From the IMG/VR virus record IMGVR_UViG_2675903324_000004: DNA of 19,205 nt. One strand, given 5' to 3'. The notes below the pieces were generated by a model. It had not been told where the DNA came from. It searched no databases and worked only from the letters and a program-made list of their open reading frames with translations. Positions 2,161 to 18,566 of the stretch are shown here, one piece after another. The translations under genes were made by a program, and so were the position numbers. Source of the stretch: a virus. Lineage: Duplodnaviria; Heunggongvirae; Uroviricota; Caudoviricetes. Within the stretch, counting starts at the first letter, position 1; every line of letters begins with the position of its first letter.

Positions 2161-2733
2161 ATGAATATGATGACCGTGCCGTTTCACGGCGATTCTCTTT
2201 ATGTGGTTAACCATAACGGCGAACCATACGTTCCCATGAAACCTGTCGTTGAGGGAATGGGTATGACCTGGCAGTCTCAACACCGCAAATTGATGGAGAG
2301 ATTTAAGACCTGCATCATCGAAATGATGATTCAGCTCCCCGGTGATACTCAGCGTCGTCTGGTTATCTGTCTTGCTTTACGTAAACTTGCAGGTTGGCTG
2401 CAAACCATCAACCCAAATAAAGTTAAACCTGAAATCCGCGACAGAGTCATTCAGTATCAGGAAGAGTGCGACGATGTTCTCTATGAATACTGGACGAAGG
2501 GTTTTGTCGTTAATCCTCGTCAAATGAGCGTGATGGAAGAACTCAACCAGGCATGCGCTGACATGAAACGGGATAAAAACATTGCCAGTCTGTTTGGTAC
2601 AGGGTTAAACGAATGGAAATTGGTTAAAGCTGCGCATGTGTCAAAAATCCGCACATTGATAAACGAAGCGAATCTGCTGATTGATTTTGTCCTGGCTGAT
2701 ACAGGCAAAGGGAAAATAACAAAGGCGGATTGA
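2161..2733 (+). CDS. phage antirepressor-like protein (tentative; N-terminal region resembles P22-AR-N-type antirepressor domains)
   Basis: 190-aa ORF with SD AAGGA upstream of the ATG. The N-terminal motif TVPFHGDSLYVVNHNGEPYVPMKPVVEGMGMTWQSQ matches my memory of proteins annotated as phage antirepressors that sit between R and Rz in some E. coli lambdoid/Stx-type prophages. The family assignment is from memory only. Confidence 0.6.
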   Translation: MNMMTVPFHGDSLYVVNHNGEPYVPMKPVVEGMGMTWQSQHRKLMERFKTCIIEMMIQLPGDTQRRLVICLALRKLAGWLQTINPNKVKPEIRDRVIQYQEECDDVLYEYWTKGFVVNPRQMSVMEELNQACADMKRDKNIASLFGTGLNEWKLVKAAHVSKIRTLINEANLLIDFVLADTGKGKITKAD

Positions 2734-2882
2734 TGGAGTGGTGGCTAATGATATCGGATAAAATCATAACGCTGACAAAGACCATTTGTGTGATTGTCGG
2801 CGTTTCATTTTCGCTAATGATGGTTGCTCTTTTTCTTTCCATAGCCTGGATGGCGTTGAGTTCGGCAGGGCTGGTGGGGTGA
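2733..2882 (+). CDS. small hydrophobic membrane protein (49 aa); possible lysis-accessory protein
   Basis: Not in the ORF track (<60 aa). Its ATG at 2733 overlaps the upstream stop (TGATG) and its TGA at 2880-2882 overlaps the Rz GTG start (GTGA), so it is translationally coupled on both sides. It encodes MEWWLMISDKIITLTKTICVIVGVSFSLMMVALFLSIAWMALSSAGLVG, with one long or two short transmembrane segments. It lacks the charged C-terminal tail usual for holins. Confidence 0.4.
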   Translation: MEWWLMISDKIITLTKTICVIVGVSFSLMMVALFLSIAWMALSSAGLVG

Positions 2883-3322
2883 GCATAAACCGAATTCTTT
2901 CCGCGTTTACCGTTATTCTGCTGGTGGCCTGTGGTGCGCTTAGTTTGGGGCTGAATCATTACCGTGATAACGCCATCGCCTACAAAGAGCAGCGCGATAA
3001 AGCCACATCCATCATCGCTGATATGCAGAAGCGGCAACGTGATGTAGCAGAACTTGACGCCAGATACACAAAGGAGCTTGCTGATGCTAATGCGACTATC
3101 GAAAGTCTCCGTGCTGATGTTTCTGCTGGGCGTAAGCGCCTGCAAGTCGCCGCCACCTGTGCAAACTCAACGACCGGAGCCAGCAGCATGGGCGATGGAG
3201 AAAGCCCAGGACTTACAGCAGATGCTGAACTCAATTATTACCGTCTCCGAAGTGGAATCGACAGGATAACCGCGCAGGTTAACTACCTGCAGGAGTACAT
3301 CAGGACGCAATGCCTGAAATAA
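2879..3322 (+). CDS. Rz: i-spanin (inner-membrane spanin subunit) Rz
   Basis: From the GTG at 2879 the product begins MSINRILSAFTVILLVACGALSLGLNHYRDNAIAYKEQRDK..., i.e. an N-terminal TMD then a coiled-coil periplasmic domain, closely resembling lambda Rz (…AVNHYRDNAITYKAQRDK…). The upstream extension of the track ORF (TTG at 2786) is non-homologous, so the GTG start is preferred. Confidence 0.9.
   Translation: MSINRILSAFTVILLVACGALSLGLNHYRDNAIAYKEQRDKATSIIADMQKRQRDVAELDARYTKELADANATIESLRADVSAGRKRLQVAATCANSTTGASSMGDGESPGLTADAELNYYRLRSGIDRITAQVNYLQEYIRTQCLK
3084..3269 (+). CDS. Rz1: o-spanin (outer-membrane lipoprotein spanin subunit) Rz1, embedded in the +1 frame of Rz
   Basis: ATG at 3084 with a strong SD (AAGGAG at 3071-3076, 7-nt spacer). 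The signal peptide MLMRLSKVSVLMFLLGVSAC carries a lipobox (VSAC), followed by the Pro-rich mature region (KSPPPVQTQRPEPAAW) characteristic of Rz1. It is wholly embedded in Rz, as in lambda. Confidence 0.85.
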   Translation: MLMRLSKVSVLMFLLGVSACKSPPPVQTQRPEPAAWAMEKAQDLQQMLNSIITVSEVESTG

Positions 3323-3377: not shown

Positions 3378-3520
3378 ATGTCCGCAGTAAACGCGCATCT
3401 CACGCGCATATTAACGAGAGCCTTTCAGTAAGCGGGCCTGAGAATTGCCGTTATAGGTGGCGACCTCTCTCGGGCGGCTTTTCTGTGAGACAGGCTCACT
3501 TTCTAAAAGGTAAAGACGCC

Positions 3521-4018
3521 ATGAAAGCAATCACGCTTTTTAATACACCGATCCGTGTTGATGAATCAGGAATGATCTGCCTCACTGATATGTGGAAAGC
3601 CAGTGGTAAAAGTGAATCTGAATCTCCGTACCACTACCTGCGAAACAAGCAGACCAAAGAGTTCTTAGCCGAGCTGGAGAAAAACCACGAATCTGTGGTT
3701 TTTACTGAGCGCGGTGTACACGGTGGAACATATGGCGGGAAGTTTGTTGCTTATGATTATGCAGCATGGCTAACCCCCGGATTTAAATATGCAGCCTATA
3801 AAGTCCTGGATGACTACTTCACCGGAGAACTTCAGCATCGCAACAGCTTAAGTGCGCAGCTCAATATGAAGTGTCATGAGTTTGATCAGAAAAAAGATAT
3901 GGCGAGCTTCTGTGGGCAAGGTCTGGCGGCATGGCGCTATACGAAACCAGTGTTGGTCGCTGAGATTAACTCCCTGGCTAACCAGCTGCAGATAACGATC
4001 CCCGGGCTTCCGGGATGA
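3521..4018 (+). CDS. KilA-N domain-containing protein
   Basis: N-terminal region MKAITLFNTPIRVDESGMICLTDMWKASGK…GGKFVAYDYAAWLTPGFKYAAYKVLDDYF resembles KilA-N (APSES-like) DNA-binding domains common in prophage accessory regions. ATG 3521 is preferred over the GTG at 3485 by homology, but the start is uncertain. Confidence 0.7.
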   Translation: MKAITLFNTPIRVDESGMICLTDMWKASGKSESESPYHYLRNKQTKEFLAELEKNHESVVFTERGVHGGTYGGKFVAYDYAAWLTPGFKYAAYKVLDDYFTGELQHRNSLSAQLNMKCHEFDQKKDMASFCGQGLAAWRYTKPVLVAEINSLANQLQITIPGLPG

Positions 4019-4913: not shown

Positions 4914-5229
4914 GCTTATACCCTACACGGGATAACTTAATTGATATCCTTTTTAACGGATAAAGGCATTTCAGCCTGACATAGCCATGCGCCGTATCGT
5001 CGCCGTATTCCTGCATTAACAGAGACCGCAGCCCGACAGGGAGACTCCTCTGCGAGAGTGTGCGGGGATAATCAAAAACGATACACACCGGGGTTTACCG
5101 CGTTAACGGAGCGCGGCGTTGTCCCCTCATGGTCGCTGGTCCGGTGCGATGGTGGAAGAAACTGGATTTTGTTGCAACTGATAACCATTATCATTTTGCG
5201 GGTCCTTTCCGGCGATCCGGGCCGTTACG

Positions 5230-5410: not shown

Positions 5411-5959
5411 ATGAACGTCAATAAGAAAAAACTGGCCGATATTTTTGGCGTTGATGTCAGGACCATCACCGCCTGGCAGAGTCAGGGGTTACCACTAGTT
5501 TCTGGTGGAGGGAAAGGGACTGAATCAGTTTTTGATACAACTGCTGCCATTCAGTGGTATGCGCAGAGGGAAGCTGATATTGAAAACGAAAAACTCCGTA
5601 AAGAGATCGAGGATTTGAGGGCTGCCAGCGAATCAGACCTTCAGCCCGGCACCATTGATTACGAACGTTACCGACTGACGAAGGCACAGGCCGATGCACA
5701 GGAGCTGAAAAATGCTCGTGAGGAAGGCCTTGTCCTCGAGACGGAGTTATTTACCTACATCTTTCAGCGAGTGGCACAGAATATATCAGGGATCCTTGTC
5801 CGTGTCCCTCAGACACTGCAGCGTAAATACCCTGATATATCACCCGTACATCTTGATGCTGTGAAAACTGAAATCGCGAAAGCATCCGATGTGGCTTCTG
5901 AAGCCGGTGAGAATGTGCGCAGGTGGATTGATGATTTCAGACGAACTGAGGGCGGCTAA
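5411..5959 (+). CDS. Nu1: terminase small subunit (gpNu1 homolog)
   Basis: 182 aa with SD GGGGGAG upstream. Strong similarity from memory to lambda Nu1 (MEVNKKQLADIFGASIRTIQNWQEQGMPVLRGGGKGNEVLYDSAAVIKWYAE…), including the N-terminal winged-HTH region. Confidence 0.95.
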
Positions 5960-7859: not shown

Positions 7860-8049
7860 ACTGCAGGCGCTGCGTCAGGCGCGCCTTGATTTATTAACCG
7901 GTAAACGGGTGGTGTCTGTCCAGAAAGATGGTCGCAGAATTGAATATACGGCGGCTTCTCTGGATGAGCTTAACCGTGCGATCAATGATGCGGAGTCGGT
8001 ACTGGGGACAACCCGCCGTCGCCGTCGTCCGCTGGGAGTGAGGTTATGA
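7843..8049 (+). CDS. W: head-tail joining / head stabilisation protein (gpW homolog)
   Basis: 68 aa with SD GGAGGAG. Similar to lambda W (…[21 protein letters not shown]…). Overlaps the A stop and the B start. Confidence 0.9.
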   Translation: MVTVAELQALRQARLDLLTGKRVVSVQKDGRRIEYTAASLDELNRAINDAESVLGTTRRRRRPLGVRL

Positions 8050-9638
8050 AACGAACGCCTGTCCTGATTGATGTGAACGGCGTTCCGCTTCGGGAGAGCC
8101 TCAGCTACCACGGGGGCGGTGCAGGATTTGGCGGGCAAATGGCGGAGTGGTTGCCACCGGCGCAGAGTGCCGATGCAGCCCTGCTGCCTGCGTTGCGTCT
8201 GGGGAATGCCCGGGCAGATGATCTGGTGCGCAATAACGGGATAGCGGCTAATGCGGTGGCCCTGCATAAGGATCATATTGTCGGGCATATGTTTCTGATC
8301 AGCTACCGTCCGAACTGGCGCTGGCTGGGGATGCGGGAGACTGCGGCAAAAAGTTTTGTCGATGAGGTGGAGGCGGCCTGGTCGGAATACGCCGAAGGGA
8401 TGTTTGGCGAGATCGACGTGGAAGGGAAACGCACGTTTACGGAATTTATCCGTGAAGGTGTGGGCGTTCATGCGTTTAACGGCGAAATCTTTGTGCAGCC
8501 GGTCTGGGATACGGAGAGCACGCAACTGTTTCGTACGCGTTTTAAAGCCGTGAGTCCGAAACGGGTGGACACGCCAGGACACGGTATGGGGAACCGTTTT
8601 CTGCGGGCCGGTGTGGAGGTCGATCGATATGGTCGTGCCGTTGCGTACCATATCTGTGAGGATGATTTTCCGTTCTCCGGGAGTGGACGATGGGAACGGA
8701 TCCCGCGTGAACTTCCCACCGGGCGTCCGGCCATGCTGCATATTTTCGAGCCGGTGGAGGACGGGCAGACCCGTGGGGCCAATCAGTTTTACAGCGTAAT
8801 GGAACGGCTGAAGATGCTCGATTCCCTGCAGGCAACACAGCTTCAGTCGGCCATAGTGAAGGCGATGTATGCAGCGACGATTGAAAGTGACCTTGATACC
8901 GAAAAGGCCTTTGAATATATCGCCGGTGCGCCGCAGGGGCAGAAGGATAATCCGCTTATTAATATTCTGGATAAGTTCTCCACCTGGTATGACACGAATA
9001 GCGTGACGCTGGGCGGTGTCAAAATTCCGCACCTTTTCCCCGGTGATGATCTGAAACTTCAGACCGCGCAGGATTCAGACAATGGATTTTCGGCGCTTGA
9101 ACAGGCGCTGCTGCGGTATATCGCCGCCGGTCTTGGCGTTTCCTACGAACAGTTGTCCCGTGATTACTCGAAGGTCAGTTATTCAAGTGCCCGCGCATCC
9201 GCCAATGAGTCGTGGCGCTATTTTATGGGGCGGCGAAAATTTATTGCGTCCCGGCTGGCCACGCAGATGTTTTCCTGCTGGCTGGAAGAGGCACTTCTTC
9301 GGGGGATTATTCGTCCGCCACGGGCACGTTTTGATTTTTATCAGGCGCGATCAGCCTGGTCACGGGCTGAGTGGATTGGAGCCGGAAGAATGGCCATTGA
9401 CGGGCTCAAGGAGGTTCAGGAATCAGTGATGCGCATTGAGGCCGGACTGAGCACGTATGAGAAAGAGCTGGCGCTGATGGGCGAGGATTATCAGGACATT
9501 TTCCGCCAGCAGGTCAGGGAATCTGCAGAGCGGGAAAAAGCCGGACTCTCACATCCGGTGTGGATAGCGCAGGCGTATCAGCAGCAGATAGCGGAGAGTC
9601 GCAGGCCGGAAGAGGAGACAACACCACGTGAGACGTAA
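8046..9638 (+). CDS. B: portal protein (gpB homolog)
   Basis: 530 aa, collinear with lambda gpB (533 aa), e.g. HIFEPVEDGQTRGANQFYSVMERLKMLDSLQATQLQSAIVKAMYAATIES. Confidence 0.95.
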   Translation: MKRTPVLIDVNGVPLRESLSYHGGGAGFGGQMAEWLPPAQSADAALLPALRLGNARADDLVRNNGIAANAVALHKDHIVGHMFLISYRPNWRWLGMRETAAKSFVDEVEAAWSEYAEGMFGEIDVEGKRTFTEFIREGVGVHAFNGEIFVQPVWDTESTQLFRTRFKAVSPKRVDTPGHGMGNRFLRAGVEVDRYGRAVAYHICEDDFPFSGSGRWERIPRELPTGRPAMLHIFEPVEDGQTRGANQFYSVMERLKMLDSLQATQLQSAIVKAMYAATIESDLDTEKAFEYIAGAPQGQKDNPLINILDKFSTWYDTNSVTLGGVKIPHLFPGDDLKLQTAQDSDNGFSALEQALLRYIAAGLGVSYEQLSRDYSKVSYSSARASANESWRYFMGRRKFIASRLATQMFSCWLEEALLRGIIRPPRARFDFYQARSAWSRAEWIGAGRMAIDGLKEVQESVMRIEAGLSTYEKELALMGEDYQDIFRQQVRESAEREKAGLSHPVWIAQAYQQQIAESRRPEEETTPRET

Positions 9639-11133
9639 TCTTTCACACATTATTGCCGCAGCATTCAATGAACCGCTGCTTCTGGAGCCCGCCTATGCGC
9701 GGGTTTTCTTTTGCGCGCTCGGGCGCGAGATGGGGGCAGCAAGTCTTTCGGTACCACAACAGCAGGTACAGCTTGATGCTCCCGGAATGCTGGCTGAAAC
9801 GGACGAGTACATGGCCGGAGGTAAACGACCGGCCCGTGTTTACCGGGTGGTGAACGGTATTGCTGTACTGCCGGTGACCGGCACGCTGGTGCACCGGCTG
9901 GGCGGTATGCGGCCATTTTCCGGAATGACAGGCTATGACGGCATTGTCGCCTGTCTTCAGCAGGCAATGGCAGATAGCCAGGTGCGGGGCGTACTGCTGG
10001 ACATTGACAGTCCTGGCGGGCAGGCCGCCGGCGCGTTTGACTGCGCTGACATGATTTACCGCCTCCGTCAGCAGAAGCCGGTCTGGGCACTGTGCAATGA
10101 CACGGCCTGTTCTGCAGCCATGCTGCTGGCGTCGGCCTGCTCCCGACGGCTGGTTACCCAGACATCCCGTATCGGCTCCATTGGCGTGATGATGAGCCAT
10201 GTCAGCTATGCCGGTCATCTGGCGCAGGCCGGGGTGGATATCACGCTGATTTATGCCGGGGCGCACAAGGTGGATGGCAATCAGTTTGAAGCTTTACCGG
10301 CAGAGGTGCGTCAGGACATGCAGCAGCGGGTTGATGCGGCGCACCGGATGTTTGCCGAAAAAGTGGCGATGTATACGGGGCTGTCTGTGGAAGCTGTCAC
10401 GGGGACAGAGGCTGCCGTTTTTGAAGGTCAGTCCGCTATTAAGGCCGGACTGGCGGATGAATTAATCAATGCGTCGGATGCCATCAGCGTGATGGCTGCG
10501 GCGCTGAACACTCATGATACAGGAGGCACTATGCCGCAATTAACTGCAACGGAAGCTGCCGCGCAGGAGAACCAGCGAGTGATGGGGATCCTGACGTGTC
10601 AGGAAGCGAAAGGACGTGAACAGCTTGCCACGATGCTGGCAGGACAACAGGGCATGAGCATTGAACAGGCCCGGGCGATTCTGGCCGCGGCGGCACCACA
10701 GCAGCCGGTGGCATCCGCGCAGAGTGAAGCCGATCGCATTATGGCGTGTGAAGAAGCGAAAGGTCGTGAACAACTGGCGGCAACGCTGGCGGCGATGCCG
10801 GAGATGACGGTGGAAAAAGCCCGCCCGATCCTCGCTGCCTCACCGCAGGCGAATGCCGGGCCCTCACTTCGTGATCAGATCATGGCCCTGGATGAGGCAA
10901 AAGGGGCAGAAGCGCAGGCTGAAAAACTGGCGGCCTGCCCGGGAATGACCGTGGAGAACGCCCGGGCTGTGCTGGCTGCGGGATCAGGTAAGGCCGAACC
11001 GGTCTCTGCATCCACAACCGCCCTGTTTGAACATTTCATGGCGAACCATTCACCGGCAGCAGTGCAGGGTGGCGTGCCACAGACGTCAGCAGACGGTGAT
11101 GCGGACGTGAAAATGCTCATGGCCATGCCATGA
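9628..11133 (+). CDS. C: head maturation protease / minor capsid protein (gpC homolog, S49/ClpP-like)
   Basis: GTG start at 9628 overlapping the B stop. N-terminal ~300 aa similar to lambda gpC (AFNEPLLLEPAYARVFFCAL…, NGIAVLPVTGTLV…, RLVTQTSRIGSIGVMM). The C-terminal third contains the scaffold-like repeats. Confidence 0.9.
   Translation: MRRNLSHIIAAAFNEPLLLEPAYARVFFCALGREMGAASLSVPQQQVQLDAPGMLAETDEYMAGGKRPARVYRVVNGIAVLPVTGTLVHRLGGMRPFSGMTGYDGIVACLQQAMADSQVRGVLLDIDSPGGQAAGAFDCADMIYRLRQQKPVWALCNDTACSAAMLLASACSRRLVTQTSRIGSIGVMMSHVSYAGHLAQAGVDITLIYAGAHKVDGNQFEALPAEVRQDMQQRVDAAHRMFAEKVAMYTGLSVEAVTGTEAAVFEGQSAIKAGLADELINASDAISVMAAALNTHDTGGTMPQLTATEAAAQENQRVMGILTCQEAKGREQLATMLAGQQGMSIEQARAILAAAAPQQPVASAQSEADRIMACEEAKGREQLAATLAAMPEMTVEKARPILAASPQANAGPSLRDQIMALDEAKGAEAQAEKLAACPGMTVENARAVLAAGSGKAEPVSASTTALFEHFMANHSPAAVQGGVPQTSADGDADVKMLMAMP
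10531..11133 (+). CDS. Nu3: scaffolding protein (gpNu3-like), nested in-frame within the 3' part of C
   Basis: In-frame internal ATG at 10531 preceded by a consensus SD (AGGAGG at 10521-10526). A nested in-frame scaffold gene is the lambda C/Nu3 arrangement. The exact start is inferred, not proven. Confidence 0.55.
   Translation: MPQLTATEAAAQENQRVMGILTCQEAKGREQLATMLAGQQGMSIEQARAILAAAAPQQPVASAQSEADRIMACEEAKGREQLAATLAAMPEMTVEKARPILAASPQANAGPSLRDQIMALDEAKGAEAQAEKLAACPGMTVENARAVLAAGSGKAEPVSASTTALFEHFMANHSPAAVQGGVPQTSADGDADVKMLMAMP
10576..11013 (+). repeat. three diverged in-frame tandem repeats (~44-53 codons each) within C/Nu3
   Basis: Protein-level repeats: RVMGILTCQEAKGREQLATMLAGQQGMSIEQARAILAAAAPQ… / RIMACEEAKGREQLAATLAAMPEMTVEKARPILAASPQ… / QIMALDEAKGAEAQAEKLAACPGMTVENARAVLAAGSG…. 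Approximate unit boundaries are 10576, 10735 and 10879. Confidence 0.7.
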
Positions 11134-11169
11134 AGCCAGTGCTGACCATCAATATGAGGTTTTAACAAA

Positions 11170-11517
11170 ATGGTGACGAAAACCATCACTGAACAACGTG
11201 CGGAAGTACGTATTTTTGCCGGTAATGATCCGGCTCATACCGCCACAGGCAGCAGCGGGATTTCTCAGGCAACACCGGCACTGACCCCCCTGATGCTGGA
11301 TGAAGCCAGCGGGAAACTGGTGGTCTGGGACGGACAGAAAGCCGGTAGTGCGGTTGGCATACTGGTACTGCCGCTTGAAGGCACAGAGACGGTGCTGACC
11401 TATTACAAGTCGGGGACCTTTGCGACGGAGGCAATCCGCTGGCCTGACAGTGTGGATGAACACAAAAAGGCAAATGCCTTTGCCGGCACAGCCCTGAGTC
11501 ACGCGGCGCTGCCGTAA
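11170..11517 (+). CDS. D: head decoration protein (gpD homolog)
   Basis: 115 aa, similar to lambda gpD (…DPAHTATGSSG…TPLMLD…KLVVWDG…AVGILV…YKSGTF…AFAGTA…). Confidence 0.9.
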   Translation: MVTKTITEQRAEVRIFAGNDPAHTATGSSGISQATPALTPLMLDEASGKLVVWDGQKAGSAVGILVLPLEGTETVLTYYKSGTFATEAIRWPDSVDEHKKANAFAGTALSHAALP

Positions 11518-11574: not shown

Positions 11575-12603
11575 ATGGGATTGTTTACGACCCGCCAGTT
11601 ACTCGGTTATACCGAACAAAAAGTGAAATTTCGTGCGCTGTTTCTGGAACTGTTTTTCCGCCGTACGGTGAATTTCCACACCGAAGAGGTGATGCTGGAC
11701 AAAATTACCGGAAAAACGCCGGTGGCGGCCTATGTCTCCCCGATCGTTGAAGGAAAAGTGCTTCGCCATCGCGGTGGTGAAACCCGCGTGTTACGTCCGG
11801 GCTACGTCAAGCCCAAACACGAATTTAATTACCAGCAGGCGGTTGAGCGCCTTCCTGGTGAAGATCCGGCTCAGCTGAACGACCCGGCCTACCGTCGTCT
11901 GCGTATCATTACCGATAACCTCAAACAGGAAGAGCACGCCATTGTCCAGGTGGAAGAAATGCAGGCGGTGAATGCCGTGCTGTATGGCAAATACACCATG
12001 GAAGGGGATCAGTTTGATACTGTCGAGGTGGATTTCGGGCGCTCTGAAGGAAATAACATTGAGCAGGCTGACGGTAAAAAATGGTCTGAGCAGGACCGTG
12101 ATACGTTTGATCCGACGCATGATATTGACCTCTACTGCGATCAGGCCAGCGGCCTTGTGAATATCGCCATTATGGACGGTACGGTCTGGCGTCTGCTGAA
12201 TGGCTTTAAGCTGTTCCGCGAAAAACTGGATACCCGTCGCGGCTCAAATTCACAACTCGAAACGGCAGTGAAAGATCTGGGCGCAGTGGTGTCCTTCAAG
12301 GGGTATTACGGCGATCTGGCCATTGTGGTGGCGAAAACGTCTTATGTGGCAGAGGACGGTACCGAAAAACGTTATCTGCCGGAGGGCATGCTGGTGCTGG
12401 GGAATACGGCGGCAGAGGGGATTCGTTGCTATGGTGCCATTAAGGATGCACAGGCGTTGTCTGAAGGAGTGGTGGCTTCTTCCCGTTACCCGAAACACTG
12501 GCTGACCGTGGGCGATCCGTCCTGTGAATTCACCATGACGCAGTCCGCTCCGCTGATGGTGCTGCCGGATCCGGATGAGTTTGTGGTGGTACAGGTGAAA
12601 TAA
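11575..12603 (+). CDS. E: major capsid protein (gpE homolog)
   Basis: 342 aa with SD AAGGA. Collinear with lambda gpE (341 aa), e.g. PGYVKPKHE, RRGSNSQLETAVKDLG, FTMTQSAPLMVLPDPDEFV. Confidence 0.95.
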   Translation: MGLFTTRQLLGYTEQKVKFRALFLELFFRRTVNFHTEEVMLDKITGKTPVAAYVSPIVEGKVLRHRGGETRVLRPGYVKPKHEFNYQQAVERLPGEDPAQLNDPAYRRLRIITDNLKQEEHAIVQVEEMQAVNAVLYGKYTMEGDQFDTVEVDFGRSEGNNIEQADGKKWSEQDRDTFDPTHDIDLYCDQASGLVNIAIMDGTVWRLLNGFKLFREKLDTRRGSNSQLETAVKDLGAVVSFKGYYGDLAIVVAKTSYVAEDGTEKRYLPEGMLVLGNTAAEGIRCYGAIKDAQALSEGVVASSRYPKHWLTVGDPSCEFTMTQSAPLMVLPDPDEFVVVQVK

Positions 12604-15572: not shown

Positions 15573-16012
15573 ACTTTGCCCTCAGACTGGCGCGTGAGAT
15601 GGGGAGACCCGACTGGCGCGCCATGCTTGCCGGGATGACATCCACCGAATATGCCGACTGGCGACGTTTTTACCGCACGCATTATTTTCACGATACCCAG
15701 CTGGATATGCATTTTTCCGGGCTGACGTACGCCGTACTCAGCCTGTTTTTATACGATCCGGATATGCATCCCTCGGATTTCAGTCTGCTTGTCCCCCGGC
15801 GTGAGGAAGCGCAGACGGAGAGGCCGGATGAGGAAGACATGCTGATGCAGAAAGCGGCAGGACTTGCCGGAGGCGTCCGGTTCGGCGGGGAGGGCGGGGG
15901 CGATATTTCACCTTCTGCGGATGTGGTGGATGTCAGCGAGGATGATGTCGCATTAATGATGGCTTCTGCGGGGATTTCCGGAGGTGTGAGATATGTCCCA
16001 GCCGGTTGGTGA
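15141..16012 (+). CDS. G-T: tail assembly chaperone fusion protein G-T, produced by -1 frameshift at 15548-15554
   Basis: G frame to the slippery site, then the -1 frame (track ORF 15599-16012 plus its upstream open extension). The T-region sequence is similar to lambda gpT (GRPDWRAMLAGM.STEYADW.RFY.THYFHD…LDMHFSGLTY.VLSLF). Confidence 0.8.
15548..15554 (+). promoter_or_regulatory. programmed -1 ribosomal frameshift slippery heptamer G GGA AAG (G -> G-T fusion)
   Basis: The heptamer GGGAAAG sits in the correct phase of the G frame (GGA = codon 15549-15551). The -1 frame is open from here to 16012 and encodes …GKVFDGELNFALRLAREMGRPDW…, matching the lambda gpT region. Confidence 0.85.
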
Positions 16013-18566
16013 TCTTGTTATTGACCTGAGTCTGGATGCGGTCCGTTTCGATGAGCAGATGACCCGCGTAAGGCGTCATTTTTCAGGACTGGAGACTGAC
16101 GCCAGAAAAACCGCCAGTGCTGTTGAGCAGGGGCTGAGCCGTCAGGCGCTGGCTGCACAAAAAGCCGGGATGTCCGTCGGGCAGTATAAAGCGGCCATGC
16201 GAACCCTGCCTGCACAGTTTACGGATATCGCCACGCAGCTTGCCGGTGGTCAGAATCCCTGGCTGATCCTGCTGCAACAGGGCGGTCAGGTGAAGGACTC
16301 CTTCGGCGGGATGATCCCCATGTTCAGGGGGCTCGCCGGTGCGATCACCCTGCCGATGGTCGGGGTCACCTCGCTGGCGGTGGCGACAGGTGCGCTGGTG
16401 TACGCCTGGTACCAGGGAGATTCCACGCTTTCAGCGTTTAATAAAACCCTGGTTCTTTCCGGTAATCAGTCCGGACTGACTGCCGATCGTATGCTGACTC
16501 TCTCAAGAGCCGGGCAGGCAGCAGGGCTGACGTTTAACCAGGCGAGAGAGTCACTGGCAGCCCTGGTGAATGCCGGTGTGCGTGGTGGTGAACAGTTTGA
16601 TGCCATCAACCAGAGTGTCGCGCGTTTTGCGTCTGCATCCGGTGTGGAGGTGGATAAAGTCGCTGAAGCCTTCGGGAAGCTGACCACTGACCCGACGTCG
16701 GGACTGATGGCGATGGCGCGCCAGTTCCGTAACGTGACGGCAGAGCAGATTGCGTATGTTGCACAGCTGCAGCGTTCCGGAGACGAGGCCGGGGCATTGC
16801 AGGCGGCGAACGATATCGCCACGAAAGGCTTTGATGAGCAGACCCGTCGCCTGAAAGAAAACATGGGAACACTGGAGACCTGGGCGGATAAAACAGGGAA
16901 GGCATTCAAATCGATGTGGGATGCCATTCTGGATATCGGTCGTCCTGAATCCTCAGCGGATATGCTCGCCAGTGCGCAGAAGGCATTTGATGAGGCGGAT
17001 AAAAAATGGCAGTGGTACCAGAGCCGGAGCCAGCGCCGGGGAAAGACCTCCTCTTTTCGTGCGAACCTTCAGGGGGCATGGGATGACCGGGAAAATGCCC
17101 GTCTGGGTCTGGCAGCGGCCACGCTGCAGTCGGATATGGAAAAAGCCGGTGAACTGGCGGCAAGGGACCGGGCTGAGCGTTAGGCGTCACAGCTGAAGTA
17201 TACCGGAGAGGCGCAGAAGGCGTATGAGCGCCTGCAGACGCCGCTGGATAAATATACCGCCCGTCAGAAAGAGCTGAATAAGGCCCTGAAAGACGGAAAA
17301 ATCCTGCAGGCGGATTACAACACGCTGATGGCGTCGGCAAAAAAGGATTATGAATCGACGCTGAAAAAGCCGTCAGGTGTGAAGGTGTCTGCCGGTGAGC
17401 GCCAGGAAGACCGGGCGCATGCAGCCATGCTGGCGCTTGAAACCGAGCTCAGGACGCTGGAAAAACACAGCGGTGTGAATGAGAAAATCAGCCAGCAGCG
17501 CCGGGATTTATGGGAAGCGGAAAATCAGTATGTGGTCCTGAAAGAGGCCGCCACGAAACGGCAGTTATCTGAGCAGGAAAAATCCCTGCTGGCTCATGAG
17601 AAAGAAACGCTGGAGTACAAACGCCAGCTGGCTGAGCTGGGTGACAAGGTTGAATACCAGAAACGGCTGAATGAGCTGGCACAGCAGGCGGCACGGTTTG
17701 AAGAGCAGCAGAGCGCGAAGCAGGCCGCCATCAGCGCAAAAGCCCGTGGTCTCACTGACCGTCAGGCGCAGCGGGAGTCTGAAGAGCAGCGTCTTCGTGA
17801 CGTGTATGGCGATAATCCGCAGGCGCTGGCCCGGGTCACCGGGGCACTGAAACAGACATGGGCGGATGAAGACATGCTGCGCGGTGACTGGCTGGCCGGT
17901 CTGAAGTCCGGCTGGGGTGAGTGGACGGAAAGTGCGACGGACAGTTTTTCGCAGGTTAAAAGTGCTGCCACGCAGACCTTTGACGGTATTGCACAGAATA
18001 TGACGGCGATGCTGACCGGTGCAGAGGCAGACTGGCGGGGATTCACCCGTTCGGTGCTGTCCATGATGACAGAAATCCTGCTTAAACAGGCCATGGTGGG
18101 CATTGTCGGGCGTATCGGCAGCGCCATTGGTGGTGCTTTCGGTGGTGGGGCGTCTGCCTCCACGGGGACGGCCATTGAGGCTGCGGCGGCGAACTTTCAT
18201 TTTGCGACCGGCGGATTTACGGGCACGGGCGGCAAATATGAGCCTGCGGGGATAGTTCACCGCGGGGAGTTTGTCTTCACGAAGGAGGCAACCAGCCGGA
18301 TAGGCGTGGGGAATCTTTACCGTCTGATGCGCGGCTATGCGGAAGGGGGTTATGTGGGTGGTGCCGGAAGTCCGGCGCAGATGCGGCGGGCGGAAGGTAT
18401 TAATTTTAATCAGAACAATCACGTGGTGATTCAGAACGACGGTATCAACGGACAGGCGGGGCCGCAGCTGATGAAGGCGGTGTATGACATGGCCCGCAAG
18501 GGGGCGCAGGATGAACTCCGGCTGCAGTTGCGTGATGGCGGTATGTTATCAGGGAGCGGGCGATGA
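15993..18566 (+). pseudogene. H: tail tape measure protein (gpH homolog) interrupted by a single in-frame TAG at 17181-17183
   Basis: Track ORFs 15993-17183 and 17328-18566 are in the same frame (both coordinates ≡ 0 mod 3), and the 144 nt between them are open in that frame. The translation is collinear with lambda gpH across the junction (…LKYTGEAQKAYERLQTPLDKYTARQKELNKALKDGKILQADYNTLMASAKKDYESTLKK). The only interruption is the TAG at 17181-17183. ATG 15993 has SD GGAGG. Confidence 0.85.

What the first reader, a model, noticed from the sequence alone, without database searches (positions are those of the whole stretch)
10576..11013. Tandemly triplicated motif in the scaffold (C/Nu3) C-terminal region
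Three diverged in-frame repeats of a (I/V)M-x-(I/C)-x-(E/Q)-EAKG-(R/A)-E-Q-x-A-x-x-LA-x-x-(P/Q)-GM-(S/T)-(I/V)-E-x-AR-x-(I/V)-LAA unit occupy the C-terminal third of C. From memory lambda has one clear copy of this motif, and this protein is about 60 aa longer than lambda gpC. Repeat number in scaffold or maturation-cleavage regions could affect procapsid assembly or protease processing.
Basis: partly seen in the sequence, partly recalled or inferred. Interest (0 to 1): 0.45.

Follow-up and report, generated by a model that had tools for sequence, protein, structure and literature searches.

The report
Triplicated scaffold module in phage-21-type head gene
The head protease/scaffold gene of this E. 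coli prophage carries three old, diverged tandem copies of a small helical module that phage lambda has only once; the repeat is real, but it is the normal state of the classic phage 21 and of prophages in about a third of E. coli genomes, so it is ordinary.

Summary
ORF 9628-11133 (501 aa, S49 prohead protease with a nested Nu3-like scaffold from ATG 10531) holds three in-frame ~44-aa repeats at 10570-10701, 10720-10851 and 10861-10992. Pairwise scores lie 12-16 SD above composition-preserving shuffles.

It is not special to this window. Phage 21 gp5/gp6 is 95.5% identical with the same three copies, and 1870 of 5426 complete E. coli genomes carry this form.

The triplication is old. Synonymous sites are saturated, the longest DNA word shared between units is 11 nt, and the copies are position-orthologous across E. 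coli and Salmonella lineages.

A profile of the unit finds 1786 protein clusters, nearly all single-copy, at the C-terminus of S49 prohead proteases or nested scaffolds. Copy number ranges from 1 to 4, and distant lineages have duplicated the unit independently. No Pfam or NCBIfam model covers it, and nothing in the PDB matches it.

AlphaFold predicts each unit as an autonomous three-helix mini-domain, with the units strung like beads. The likely role is the folded core of the scaffold, here trivalent. That role is inferred, not shown. Interest is low to moderate.

The parts
9628..11133 (+). Gene for the head maturation protease / scaffold (lambda C, phage 21 gene 5 equivalent), 501 aa, GTG start
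   Evidence: ORF listing. Pfam Peptidase_S49 E=4.4e-36. phrog_53 head maturation protease E=6e-228. 95.8% identical to the phage ev017 CDS and 95.5% to phage 21 gp5/gp6.
10063..10506 (+). S49 peptidase domain (aa 146-293)
   Evidence: Pfam PF01343 matches aa 146-293. TIGR00706 SppA_dom matches aa 78-290.
10521..10526 (+). Shine-Dalgarno AGGAGG for the nested scaffold start
   Evidence: Read directly from the sequence. The same AGGAGG-N4-ATG sits at the aligned position in lambda, tcAGGAGGgcgaATG. A ribosome binding site is annotated here in the phage 21 record.
10531..11133 (+). Nested in-frame scaffold ORF (lambda Nu3, phage 21 gene 6 equivalent), 200 aa
   Evidence: ATG at 10531 in the C frame. 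The equivalent CDS is annotated as scaffolding protein in phage 21 OL657228. phrog_8399 head scaffolding protein E=7e-35 with 3 stretches.
10570..10701 (+). Repeat unit R1 (aa 315-358, NQRVMGILTCQEAKGREQLATMLAGQQGMSIEQARAILAAAAPQ); the ortholog of lambda's single unit
   Evidence: HMM score 86 bits. Lambda's unit scores 115 against R1-position units and 84-86 against R2/R3.
10720..10851 (+). Repeat unit R2 (aa 365-408, QSEADRIMACEEAKGREQLAATLAAMPEMTVEKARPILAASPQA)
   Evidence: HMM score 83 bits. z=15.8 against R1 and 15.7 against R3.
10861..10992 (+). Repeat unit R3 (aa 412-455, PSLRDQIMALDEAKGAEAQAEKLAACPGMTVENARAVLAAGSGK)
   Evidence: HMM score 82 bits. z=11.8 against R1 and 15.7 against R2.
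10993..11130 (+). Non-repeated C-terminal tail (aa 456-501), with the conserved ..LFEHFM..SPAAV.. and ..LLMxMP motifs shared by protease and scaffold
   Evidence: Conserved in the alignment of 3-copy relatives and recognisable in lambda as ALDRLM...DLLNTPV. AF2 predicts one helix at Nu3 residues 160-173, then a low-confidence stretch.

Best explanation
The region encodes three tandem copies of a roughly 43-aa module, consensus I(M/L)a..EAKGRExLAxxLAxxPGMTxExAkxxLAAAP. This module is the conserved folded core of lambda-type Nu3 scaffolding proteins. [quoted passage not shown]

Each copy is predicted to fold on its own into a mini-domain of three short helices. Poorly conserved, flexible linkers join the copies, so the scaffold looks like three beads on a string followed by a conserved C-terminal tail.

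The ancestral and usual state is one copy preceded by a long disordered linker, as in lambda. In the phage-21 lineage the module was duplicated twice long ago. R1 is the ortholog of lambda's copy, and R2 and R3 form a second 'internal' type. All three copies have since been kept under purifying selection.

Inferred mechanism: the module is the unit through which the scaffold, and the co-assembling protease, engage the procapsid. The partner would be the interior of the major capsid protein and/or other scaffold molecules, probably through the invariant charged EAKGRE turn. The phage-21-type scaffold would then be a trivalent version of lambda's monovalent, weakly dimerising Nu3. After assembly the S49 protease would degrade the whole region.

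Shown here: the repeats, their homology to lambda's unit, their age, their distribution and the predicted fold. Inferred: the binding partner, the valency effect and the degradation. The confidence of 0.6 is a blend: about 0.9 for the structural and evolutionary description and about 0.35-0.4 for the binding and valency mechanism.
For: - **Repeat significance:** z is 12-16 against shuffles, and there are 3 stretches against the lambda Nu3 profile phrog_8399.
- **Lambda has one unit:**
- **Nested start:** an SD plus ATG is conserved with lambda and is annotated as the scaffold CDS in phage 21.
- **Age and selection:** NG86 dS is 1.4-2.2 (saturated) and dN is 0.42-0.65. Codons differ at about half of the identical residues.
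- **Orthology by position:** across eight 3-copy proteins sharing 45-95% identity, 132 of 168 best unit matches fall at the same ordinal position. Mean same-position scores are 138, 114 and 111, against 79-105 off-diagonal.
- **Distribution:** the profile search finds 1786 cluster representatives at E<=1e-3. Of the 144 newly listed, 134 have one copy, 8 have two and 2 have three. In full-length proteins the unit always lies C-terminal to the S49 domain.
- **Fold:** AF2 of one unit gives pLDDT 84 and helices 2-8, 17-24 and 31-40. AF2 of the whole Nu3 repeats the same pattern three times at pLDDT 72-82. Linkers score 44-60 and pTM is 0.27, so no fixed inter-repeat packing is predicted.
- **Structural relatives:** the best BFVD matches are S49 prohead proteases of a Salmonella phage and a cyanophage, with TM 0.85-0.89.
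- **Interactions reported for lambda:** Nu3-E, Nu3-Nu3, Nu3-C and Nu3-B interactions are reported (PMC3224144).
- **From my own knowledge, paper not readable here:** purified lambda gpNu3 is partly helical and partly disordered, is a weak dimer, and drives gpE polymerisation (Medina et al. 2011, J Mol Biol 412:723).
Against: No experiment or structure assigns a partner to this module. The conserved C-terminal tail (aa 456-501) could equally be the capsid- or portal-binding element, with the repeats acting as spacer or self-association domains.

The capsid protein is 60% identical to lambda gpE and of essentially the same length. One copy is evidently enough for the same kind of shell, so the extra copies may have little functional consequence.

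The total tail length after the protease domain (204 aa) lies within the range of single-copy proteins (47-281, median 148). The pre-unit linker is short, 17 aa against a median of 52. The extra copies may therefore simply replace linker.

The AF2 models rest on shallow alignments of 18-20 sequences. Foldseek found no solved structure to anchor the fold.
Confidence: 0.6

Rival explanations
1. The repeats are processing cassettes. Each unit or linker supplies a cleavage site for the S49 protease, and more copies mean the scaffold is cut into smaller pieces that can leave the procapsid.
For: Lambda C is reported as possibly degrading Nu3 before DNA packaging (table in PMC3224144). Every unit ends in a conserved LAAAP-like motif followed by a short variable linker.
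Against: Conservation spans the whole 43 aa in an amphipathic, helix-forming pattern, and AF2 is confident about the fold. The linkers, where accessible sites would be expected, are the least conserved parts. Single-copy scaffolds are degraded too. The cleavage specificity of lambda-type S49 proteases is not known to me and could not be tested.
Confidence: 0.12
2. The extra copies are near-neutral filler. Duplicated modules replaced part of the long disordered linker seen in single-copy scaffolds, and only one copy (R1) or the C-terminal tail is functional.
For: Multi-copy forms have the shortest pre-unit linker, 17 aa against a median of 52, and their total tail length is within the single-copy range. 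The capsid protein is 60% identical to lambda's and of essentially the same length. Rare 2-copy deletion variants of the 21 type exist (P0014, P0018, P0022).
Against: R2 and R3 keep the invariant positions (A13, G15, E17, A20, A34) and the near-invariant ones except R16 (Ala in window R3) after a divergence that has saturated synonymous sites; dN/dS is about 0.2-0.45. Copies are conserved position by position across lineages down to 45% identity. All 38 evenly sampled full-coverage rows among the 1870 matching E. coli genomes have exactly the full 751-nt span. The 2-copy forms are singletons or tiny clusters of 1-3 members.
Confidence: 0.2
3. The similarity is compositional chance in an Ala/Gln/Glu-rich region, or a recent duplication or assembly artefact.
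For: The region is Ala-rich. Tandem Repeats Finder sees no DNA repeat.
Against: Composition-preserving shuffles never reach the observed scores, with z of 12-16. Independent profiles such as phrog_8399 hit three times. An identical architecture is present in phage 21 and in complete genomes. dS is saturated, so the duplication is not recent.
Confidence: 0.01
4. The repeat serves a DNA- or RNA-level function, such as repeated regulator binding sites or structure, and the protein repeat is a by-product.
For: The phage 21 record annotates two pattern-matched CII sites (ttgynnnnnnttgy) on the minus strand inside gene 6.
Against: DNA identity between units is only 52-58%, and the longest shared word is 11 nt. 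Conservation is at amino-acid level with different codons. The two annotated sites are bare pattern matches and do not follow the repeat period.
Confidence: 0.01

Closest known systems
Phage 21 gp5 / gp6 (capsid protease/scaffolding protein and nested scaffolding protein; OL657228, genus Jouyvirus)
   Same: Same length (501 and 200 aa), 95.5% identity over the scaffold part, the same three repeat units, the same nested start with a ribosome binding site, and the same gene order portal - protease/scaffold - decoration - major capsid.
   Different: Only point substitutions, for example EAKG in the window R2 against EANG in phage 21. The window copy sits in an E. coli chromosome and is 100% identical to strain RM14516 over the 751 nt searched, window 10450-11200.
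Phage lambda gpC / gpNu3 (S49 prohead protease with nested scaffold)
   Same: S49 domain about 54% identical. The SD-ATG for the nested scaffold is conserved at the aligned position. There is one homologous unit (AENSRIMGILNCEEAHGREEQARVLAETPGMTVKTARRILAAAPQ), orthologous to R1. The C-terminal tail is similar and the flanking genes are the same.
   Different: Lambda has one unit, preceded by a low-complexity linker of about 52 aa within Nu3. The window has three units and a 13-aa leader. gpC is 439 aa against 501 aa.
Four-copy S49 protease/scaffold of another E. coli prophage type (P0028; locus L005)
   Same: Same module, the same position after the S49 domain, and the same neighbouring decoration and lambda-E-type capsid genes.
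   Different: Four units, with units 2-4 still similar at DNA level (138-nt period, 3.7 copies, 77% matches). This is a younger or homogenised expansion. It is found in 106 of 5426 complete E. coli genomes, against 1870 for the 3-copy type.
P22 scaffolding protein C-terminal helix-turn-helix coat-binding domain
   Same: A small helical module in a scaffolding protein carrying conserved charged residues. It serves as a functional analogy for capsid-protein binding, drawn from general knowledge and from the discussion in PMC11922011.
   Different: No sequence or structure match was detected. Three helices are predicted rather than two. The module is not at the extreme C-terminus. It is repeated, and it sits in a scaffold that is degraded rather than recycled.

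Membership tests
Lambda-type gpC/Nu3 nested prohead protease-scaffold | N-terminal two thirds is an S49 (SppA-like) peptidase domain | tested here: met
   Pfam PF01343 E=4.4e-36 over aa 146-293. TIGR00706 SppA_dom E=1e-33. 54% identity to lambda-type gpC over aa 3-344.
Lambda-type gpC/Nu3 nested prohead protease-scaffold | In-frame internal translation start gives a scaffold identical to the protease C-terminus | tested here: inconclusive
   The sequence signals are present. AGGAGG at 10521-10526 is followed by ATG at 10531, and both are conserved at the aligned site in lambda. The site is annotated as a CDS in phage 21. Actual translation cannot be tested here. The start that GenBank annotates for lambda nu3 (5132) aligns to a GTT codon in the window.
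Lambda-type gpC/Nu3 nested prohead protease-scaffold | Homology of the C-terminal part to the Nu3 scaffold | tested here: met
   phrog_8399 'head scaffolding protein' E=7e-35 with 3 stretches. The unit HMM also hits lambda gpC aa 345-387 of the 426-aa annotation.
Lambda-type gpC/Nu3 nested prohead protease-scaffold | Gene order terminase - portal - protease/scaffold - decoration protein - lambda-E-type major capsid protein | tested here: met
   ORFs and PHROG assignments. The order matches the annotated ev017, phage 21 and lambda records. The capsid protein is 60% identical to gpE.
Lambda-type gpC/Nu3 nested prohead protease-scaffold | Scaffold activity, and degradation by the protease during maturation | not testable with these tools
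   Needs genetics or biochemistry. Known for lambda only from the literature (PMC3224144).
P22-type scaffold helix-turn-helix coat-binding domain | Detectable sequence or fold similarity to the solved domain | tested here: not met
   There are no PDB sequence hits for the unit profile or for Nu3 beyond chance, the best being E=0.086 for a haemoglobin. Foldseek against the PDB gives no match at E<=0.001 for either model.
P22-type scaffold helix-turn-helix coat-binding domain | Located at the extreme C-terminus of the scaffold | tested here: not met
   A conserved 46-aa tail follows the last unit.
Solenoid-type helical repeat proteins (TPR/HEAT-like) | Adjacent repeats pack into one continuous superhelical domain | tested here: inconclusive
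   AF2 of the whole scaffold gives pTM 0.27 with low-confidence linkers (pLDDT 44-60), while the isolated unit folds alone at pLDDT 84. This points to independent beads, but the alignment is shallow. The only repeat-protein hits in Foldseek have E>6.

The most novel reading that the evidence does not exclude
The ~43-aa 'EAKGRE' three-helix module is an uncurated, widespread capsid-protein-binding or self-association domain of S49-protease-linked scaffolds. Its copy number (1-4, changed repeatedly and independently in several lineages) sets scaffold valency. Phage-21-type heads would then use a monomeric trivalent scaffold where lambda uses a monovalent scaffold that must dimerise. Copy number would be an evolvable knob on assembly kinetics or fidelity.
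Probability: 0.25. Interest if true: 0.5.

Novelty: already known. Interest (0 to 1): 0.27.

Why it matters
Scaffolding proteins are the least conserved and least understood parts of tailed-phage head assembly, and there is no solved structure for lambda Nu3.

This work shows that the lambda-type scaffold is built around a small autonomous module. The module is single-copy in most phages but occurs in 3 or 4 copies in very common E. coli prophage types. That gives a natural copy-number series (lambda 1, phage 21 3, a third type 4) on closely related capsid proteins.

The series could be used to test how scaffold valency affects procapsid nucleation, fidelity and protease packaging. It also offers a clean domain definition for databases, since none of Pfam, NCBIfam or the PDB covers it.

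For this window the result is mainly reassurance. The feature is a normal, old, selected property of a well-known phage lineage, not an anomaly.

Tried and rejected
- **Tandem Repeats Finder on the window DNA:** nothing found. The repeat is visible only in protein.
- **Pfam-A and NCBIfam:** no model covers aa 300-501.
- **PDB by sequence:** the unit profile gave only chance hits. An exact 10-residue match (AKGREALAEK) to the 24-residue chain 9hqv_Un looked like a possible scaffold peptide in a capsid map. The entry turned out to be an apicomplexan mitoribosome, so I rejected it. Nu3 as a single query gave no hits.
- **Foldseek against the PDB:** nothing at E<=0.001 for either the whole-Nu3 model or the single-unit model. 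BFVD returned only homologous S49 proteases.
- **Literature:** no held paper mentions the triplication. The two most relevant papers could not be read. They are Medina et al. 2011, J Mol Biol 412:723, and Smith & Feiss 1993, Gene 126:1. I therefore cannot say whether the phage 21 authors already noted the repeat.
- **Hidden degenerate copies in lambda's N-terminal Nu3 linker:** the HMM finds none.
Full report
**What is there.** The finding lies inside ORF 9628..11133 on the + strand (GTG start, 501 aa). Residues 146-293 are an S49 peptidase domain (Pfam PF01343, E=4.4e-36), and the whole protein matches the PHROG 'head maturation protease' family. It sits between the portal gene (8046-9638) and the head-decoration (11170-11517) and lambda-E-type major capsid (11575-12603) genes. 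That is the place of lambda gene C with its nested scaffold gene Nu3. AGGAGG at 10521-10526 is followed four bases later by an in-frame ATG at 10531, which opens a nested 200-aa product. Lambda has the same AGGAGG-N4-ATG at the aligned codons, and the phage 21 record annotates this start as the scaffolding protein CDS with a ribosome binding site.

**Checking the observation.** Anchoring on the three EAKG tetrapeptides gives units at aa 315-358, 365-408 and 412-455, i.e. nt 10570-10701, 10720-10851 and 10861-10992. Local BLOSUM62 scores between the three segments are 81-105. Shuffles of the same residues give 25 +/- 5, so z is 12-16, and none of 2000 shuffles reaches the observed score. The Ala-rich composition is therefore not the cause. 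Independent profiles agree: the lambda-Nu3 PHROG (phrog_8399, 131 positions) hits three separate stretches. The repeat is a protein-level feature only. Tandem Repeats Finder reports nothing, the units share 52-58% of nucleotides, and the longest common word is 11 nt.

**Lambda and close relatives.** Translating lambda gene C shows exactly one unit...AENSRIMGILNCEEAHGREEQARVLAETPGMTVKTARRILAAAPQ.... A unit HMM finds one hit in lambda and three in the window protein. Lambda-type gpC is 439 aa against 501 aa here.

The three-copy protein is not new, however. Phage 21 gp5/gp6 has the same lengths, is 95.5% identical over the scaffold part and has the same three units. So do phages ev017, 4A7, D2, 3W and others of the genus Jouyvirus. 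Among 5426 complete E. coli genomes:

| Scaffold type | Copies of the unit | Genomes with a match |
|---|---|---|
| Phage-21 type (this window) | 3 | 1870, at >=90% nucleotide identity |
| Lambda type | 1 | 3228 |
| Third type (P0028 / L005) | 4 | 106 |

The window is 100% identical to the chromosome of strain RM14516 over the 751 nt searched (window 10450-11200). All 38 evenly sampled full-coverage rows for the 21 type have exactly the 751-nt query span.

**Age and history of the repeats.** Between units, Nei-Gojobori dS is 1.4-2.2, which is saturated, and dN is 0.42-0.65. About half of the identical residues use different codons.

An alignment of three-copy scaffolds from E. coli, Salmonella and other sources, down to 45% identity, aligns copy to copy. 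In eight such proteins, 132 of 168 best unit-to-unit matches fall at the same ordinal position. R1 is distinct: mean same-position score 138, against about 80 to R2 or R3. Lambda's single unit groups with R1 (115 against 84-86). R2 and R3 resemble each other (105) almost as much as they resemble their own orthologs (111-114).

The simplest history is one ancestral R1-type unit, a duplication that created an 'internal' type, and a further duplication of that type. All of this happened before these enterobacterial lineages diverged, and purifying selection has acted on every copy since.

The four-copy type shows the process still at work. Its units 2-4 are similar enough for a DNA-level tandem repeat to be detected, with a 138-nt period, 3.7 copies and 77% matches. 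Rare two-copy forms of the 21 type (P0014, P0018, P0022) look like in-register deletions. P0022, for example, joins R1 to R2 at ...EQAR|PILAASPQ....

**How widespread the unit is.** A profile of 20 units (alignment A1) was run exhaustively against 1.84 billion cluster representatives. It finds 1786 proteins at E<=1e-3 and 199 at E<=1e-10. Re-scanning the 144 newly listed proteins, where multi-copy proteins rank first because their scores add, gives 134 with one unit, 8 with two and 2 with three. Of 58 full-length-sized proteins, 56 have one unit.

Some two-copy proteins belong to quite different lineages, and their two units share lineage-specific residues. In P0104, for example, both units read ..HLA.NT..SA.DAIATLK... 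Duplication of the module has therefore happened repeatedly and independently.

In proteins that contain the protease domain, the unit always follows it. The tail after the protease is 204 aa here, against a median of 148 (range 47-281) for single-copy proteins. The linker before the first unit is only 17 aa, against a median of 52. The extra copies partly take the place of disordered linker.

No Pfam-A or NCBIfam model covers the unit.

**Structure.** AlphaFold2 on the 200-aa scaffold with an 18-sequence alignment gives the same helix pattern three times, at pLDDT 72-82. Linkers and the far C-terminus score 44-60 and pTM is 0.27. That is a set of independent beads rather than one packed domain. 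A single unit folded with alignment A1 reaches pLDDT 84 and pTM 0.58, with helices at residues 2-8, 17-24 and 31-40. The invariant and near-invariant positions (I7, A13, K14, G15, R16, E17, A20, L23, A24, M29, A34, L38, A40) fit small-residue helix packing plus a charged turn, EAKGRE.

Foldseek finds no solved structure for either model, and the PDB sequence search finds none either. In BFVD the only good matches are S49 prohead proteases of a Salmonella phage, a cyanophage and an uncultured siphovirus, with TM 0.85-0.89.

**How it most likely works.** Shown here: this is the nested scaffold/protease C-terminal region of a lambda-type head module, and it contains three conserved copies of the scaffold's only well-conserved folded element.

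From the literature: lambda Nu3 is the scaffold, is required for portal incorporation, interacts with E, C and itself, and is thought to be degraded by C (PMC3224144). From my own knowledge, and not readable here, purified gpNu3 is partly helical and partly disordered, is a weak dimer, and catalyses gpE polymerisation (Medina et al. 2011).

Inference: the unit is the interaction module, with the capsid protein interior and/or other scaffold molecules as partner. The shared C-terminus is what carries the protease into the prohead. The phage-21-type scaffold is a trivalent version of lambda's. I put about 0.9 on the structural and evolutionary description and about 0.35-0.4 on the valency and binding mechanism.

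The main rival is that R2 and R3 are near-neutral substitutes for linker. The unchanged capsid protein (60% identical to gpE, essentially the same length) and the short linker in multi-copy forms support this. The long-term conservation of all three copies weakens it. A processing-cassette reading is possible but fits the conservation pattern poorly. Chance, artefact and DNA-level explanations are excluded by the tests above.

**Comparison with what is known, and novelty.** By every feature that could be tested, the gene is a member of the lambda gpC/Nu3 family, and it is nearly identical to phage 21 genes 5 and 6. The object itself is therefore already known and extremely common.

What I could not find documented is the explicit description of the module, its 1-4 copy range and its recurrent duplication. 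It is absent from Pfam, NCBIfam, the PDB and the papers available here. I could not read the original phage 21 head-gene paper, so I make no priority claim.

The module resembles the P22 scaffold's coat-binding helix-turn-helix only by functional analogy. Sequence, fold and position tests for membership were not met.

**Verdict.** But it is old, fixed, and typical of a classic phage lineage. Interest is 0.27. The main value is a natural copy-number series for studying scaffold valency and a clean definition of an uncurated scaffold domain.

Noticed in passing
window 15993-18566 (stop codon at 17181-17183): The tail tape-measure gene is interrupted by an in-frame stop (...RDRAER*ASQLKY...). ORFs 15993..17183 and 17328..18566 share a frame, whereas phage ev017 has one 2562-nt CDS. 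This suggests that this prophage copy cannot make tails on its own.
   Followed up: partly
window 10315-10340 (codon aligned to the lambda nu3 start annotated in GenBank) and L002 1126: GenBank-style lambda records annotate nu3 as a 201-aa CDS starting at 5132, inside the S49 domain and with no obvious SD. The aligned codon in the window is GTT (Val), not a start. The AGGAGG-N4-ATG about 70 codons downstream is conserved in both phages. The downstream start is the better candidate for the real scaffold start.
   Followed up: partly
L005 410-918 (E. coli GCA_032727965.1 contig; protein P0028): A different E. coli prophage head module has four copies of the unit. A DNA-level tandem repeat is still detectable (138-nt period, 3.7 copies, 77% matches), which points to a recent or homogenised expansion. 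This type is present in 106 of 5426 complete E. coli genomes.
   Followed up: yes
proteins P0014, P0018, P0022, P0103 (database relatives of window 10531-11130): These are rare two-copy variants of the phage-21-type scaffold and look like in-register deletions of one unit. P0022, for example, fuses R1 to R2 at EQAR|PILAASPQ. Clusters hold 1-3 members, and some may be assembly errors.
   Followed up: partly
window 2161-2733 and 3485-4018: An Ant-like anti-repressor ORF lies between the endolysin (1353-1886) and the Rz-like spanin (2786-3322). A Rha-like regulator ORF lies between the lysis genes and the small terminase gene (5411-5959).
   Followed up: no
L003 1506-1519 and 1740-1753 (phage 21 record), equivalent to window about 10536-10549 and 10770-10783: The phage 21 GenBank record annotates two CII-binding-site pattern matches (ttgynnnnnnttgy) on the minus strand inside the scaffold gene. 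These are bare pattern matches and do not follow the repeat period.
   Followed up: no
window 10993-11130: The non-repeated C-terminal tail has two short motifs, (A/L)F(D/E)xFM and LLMS(I/M)P. They are conserved across 3- and 4-copy scaffolds and are recognisable in lambda as ALDRLM and DLLNTPV. This tail is an alternative candidate for the capsid- or portal-binding element.
   Followed up: partly
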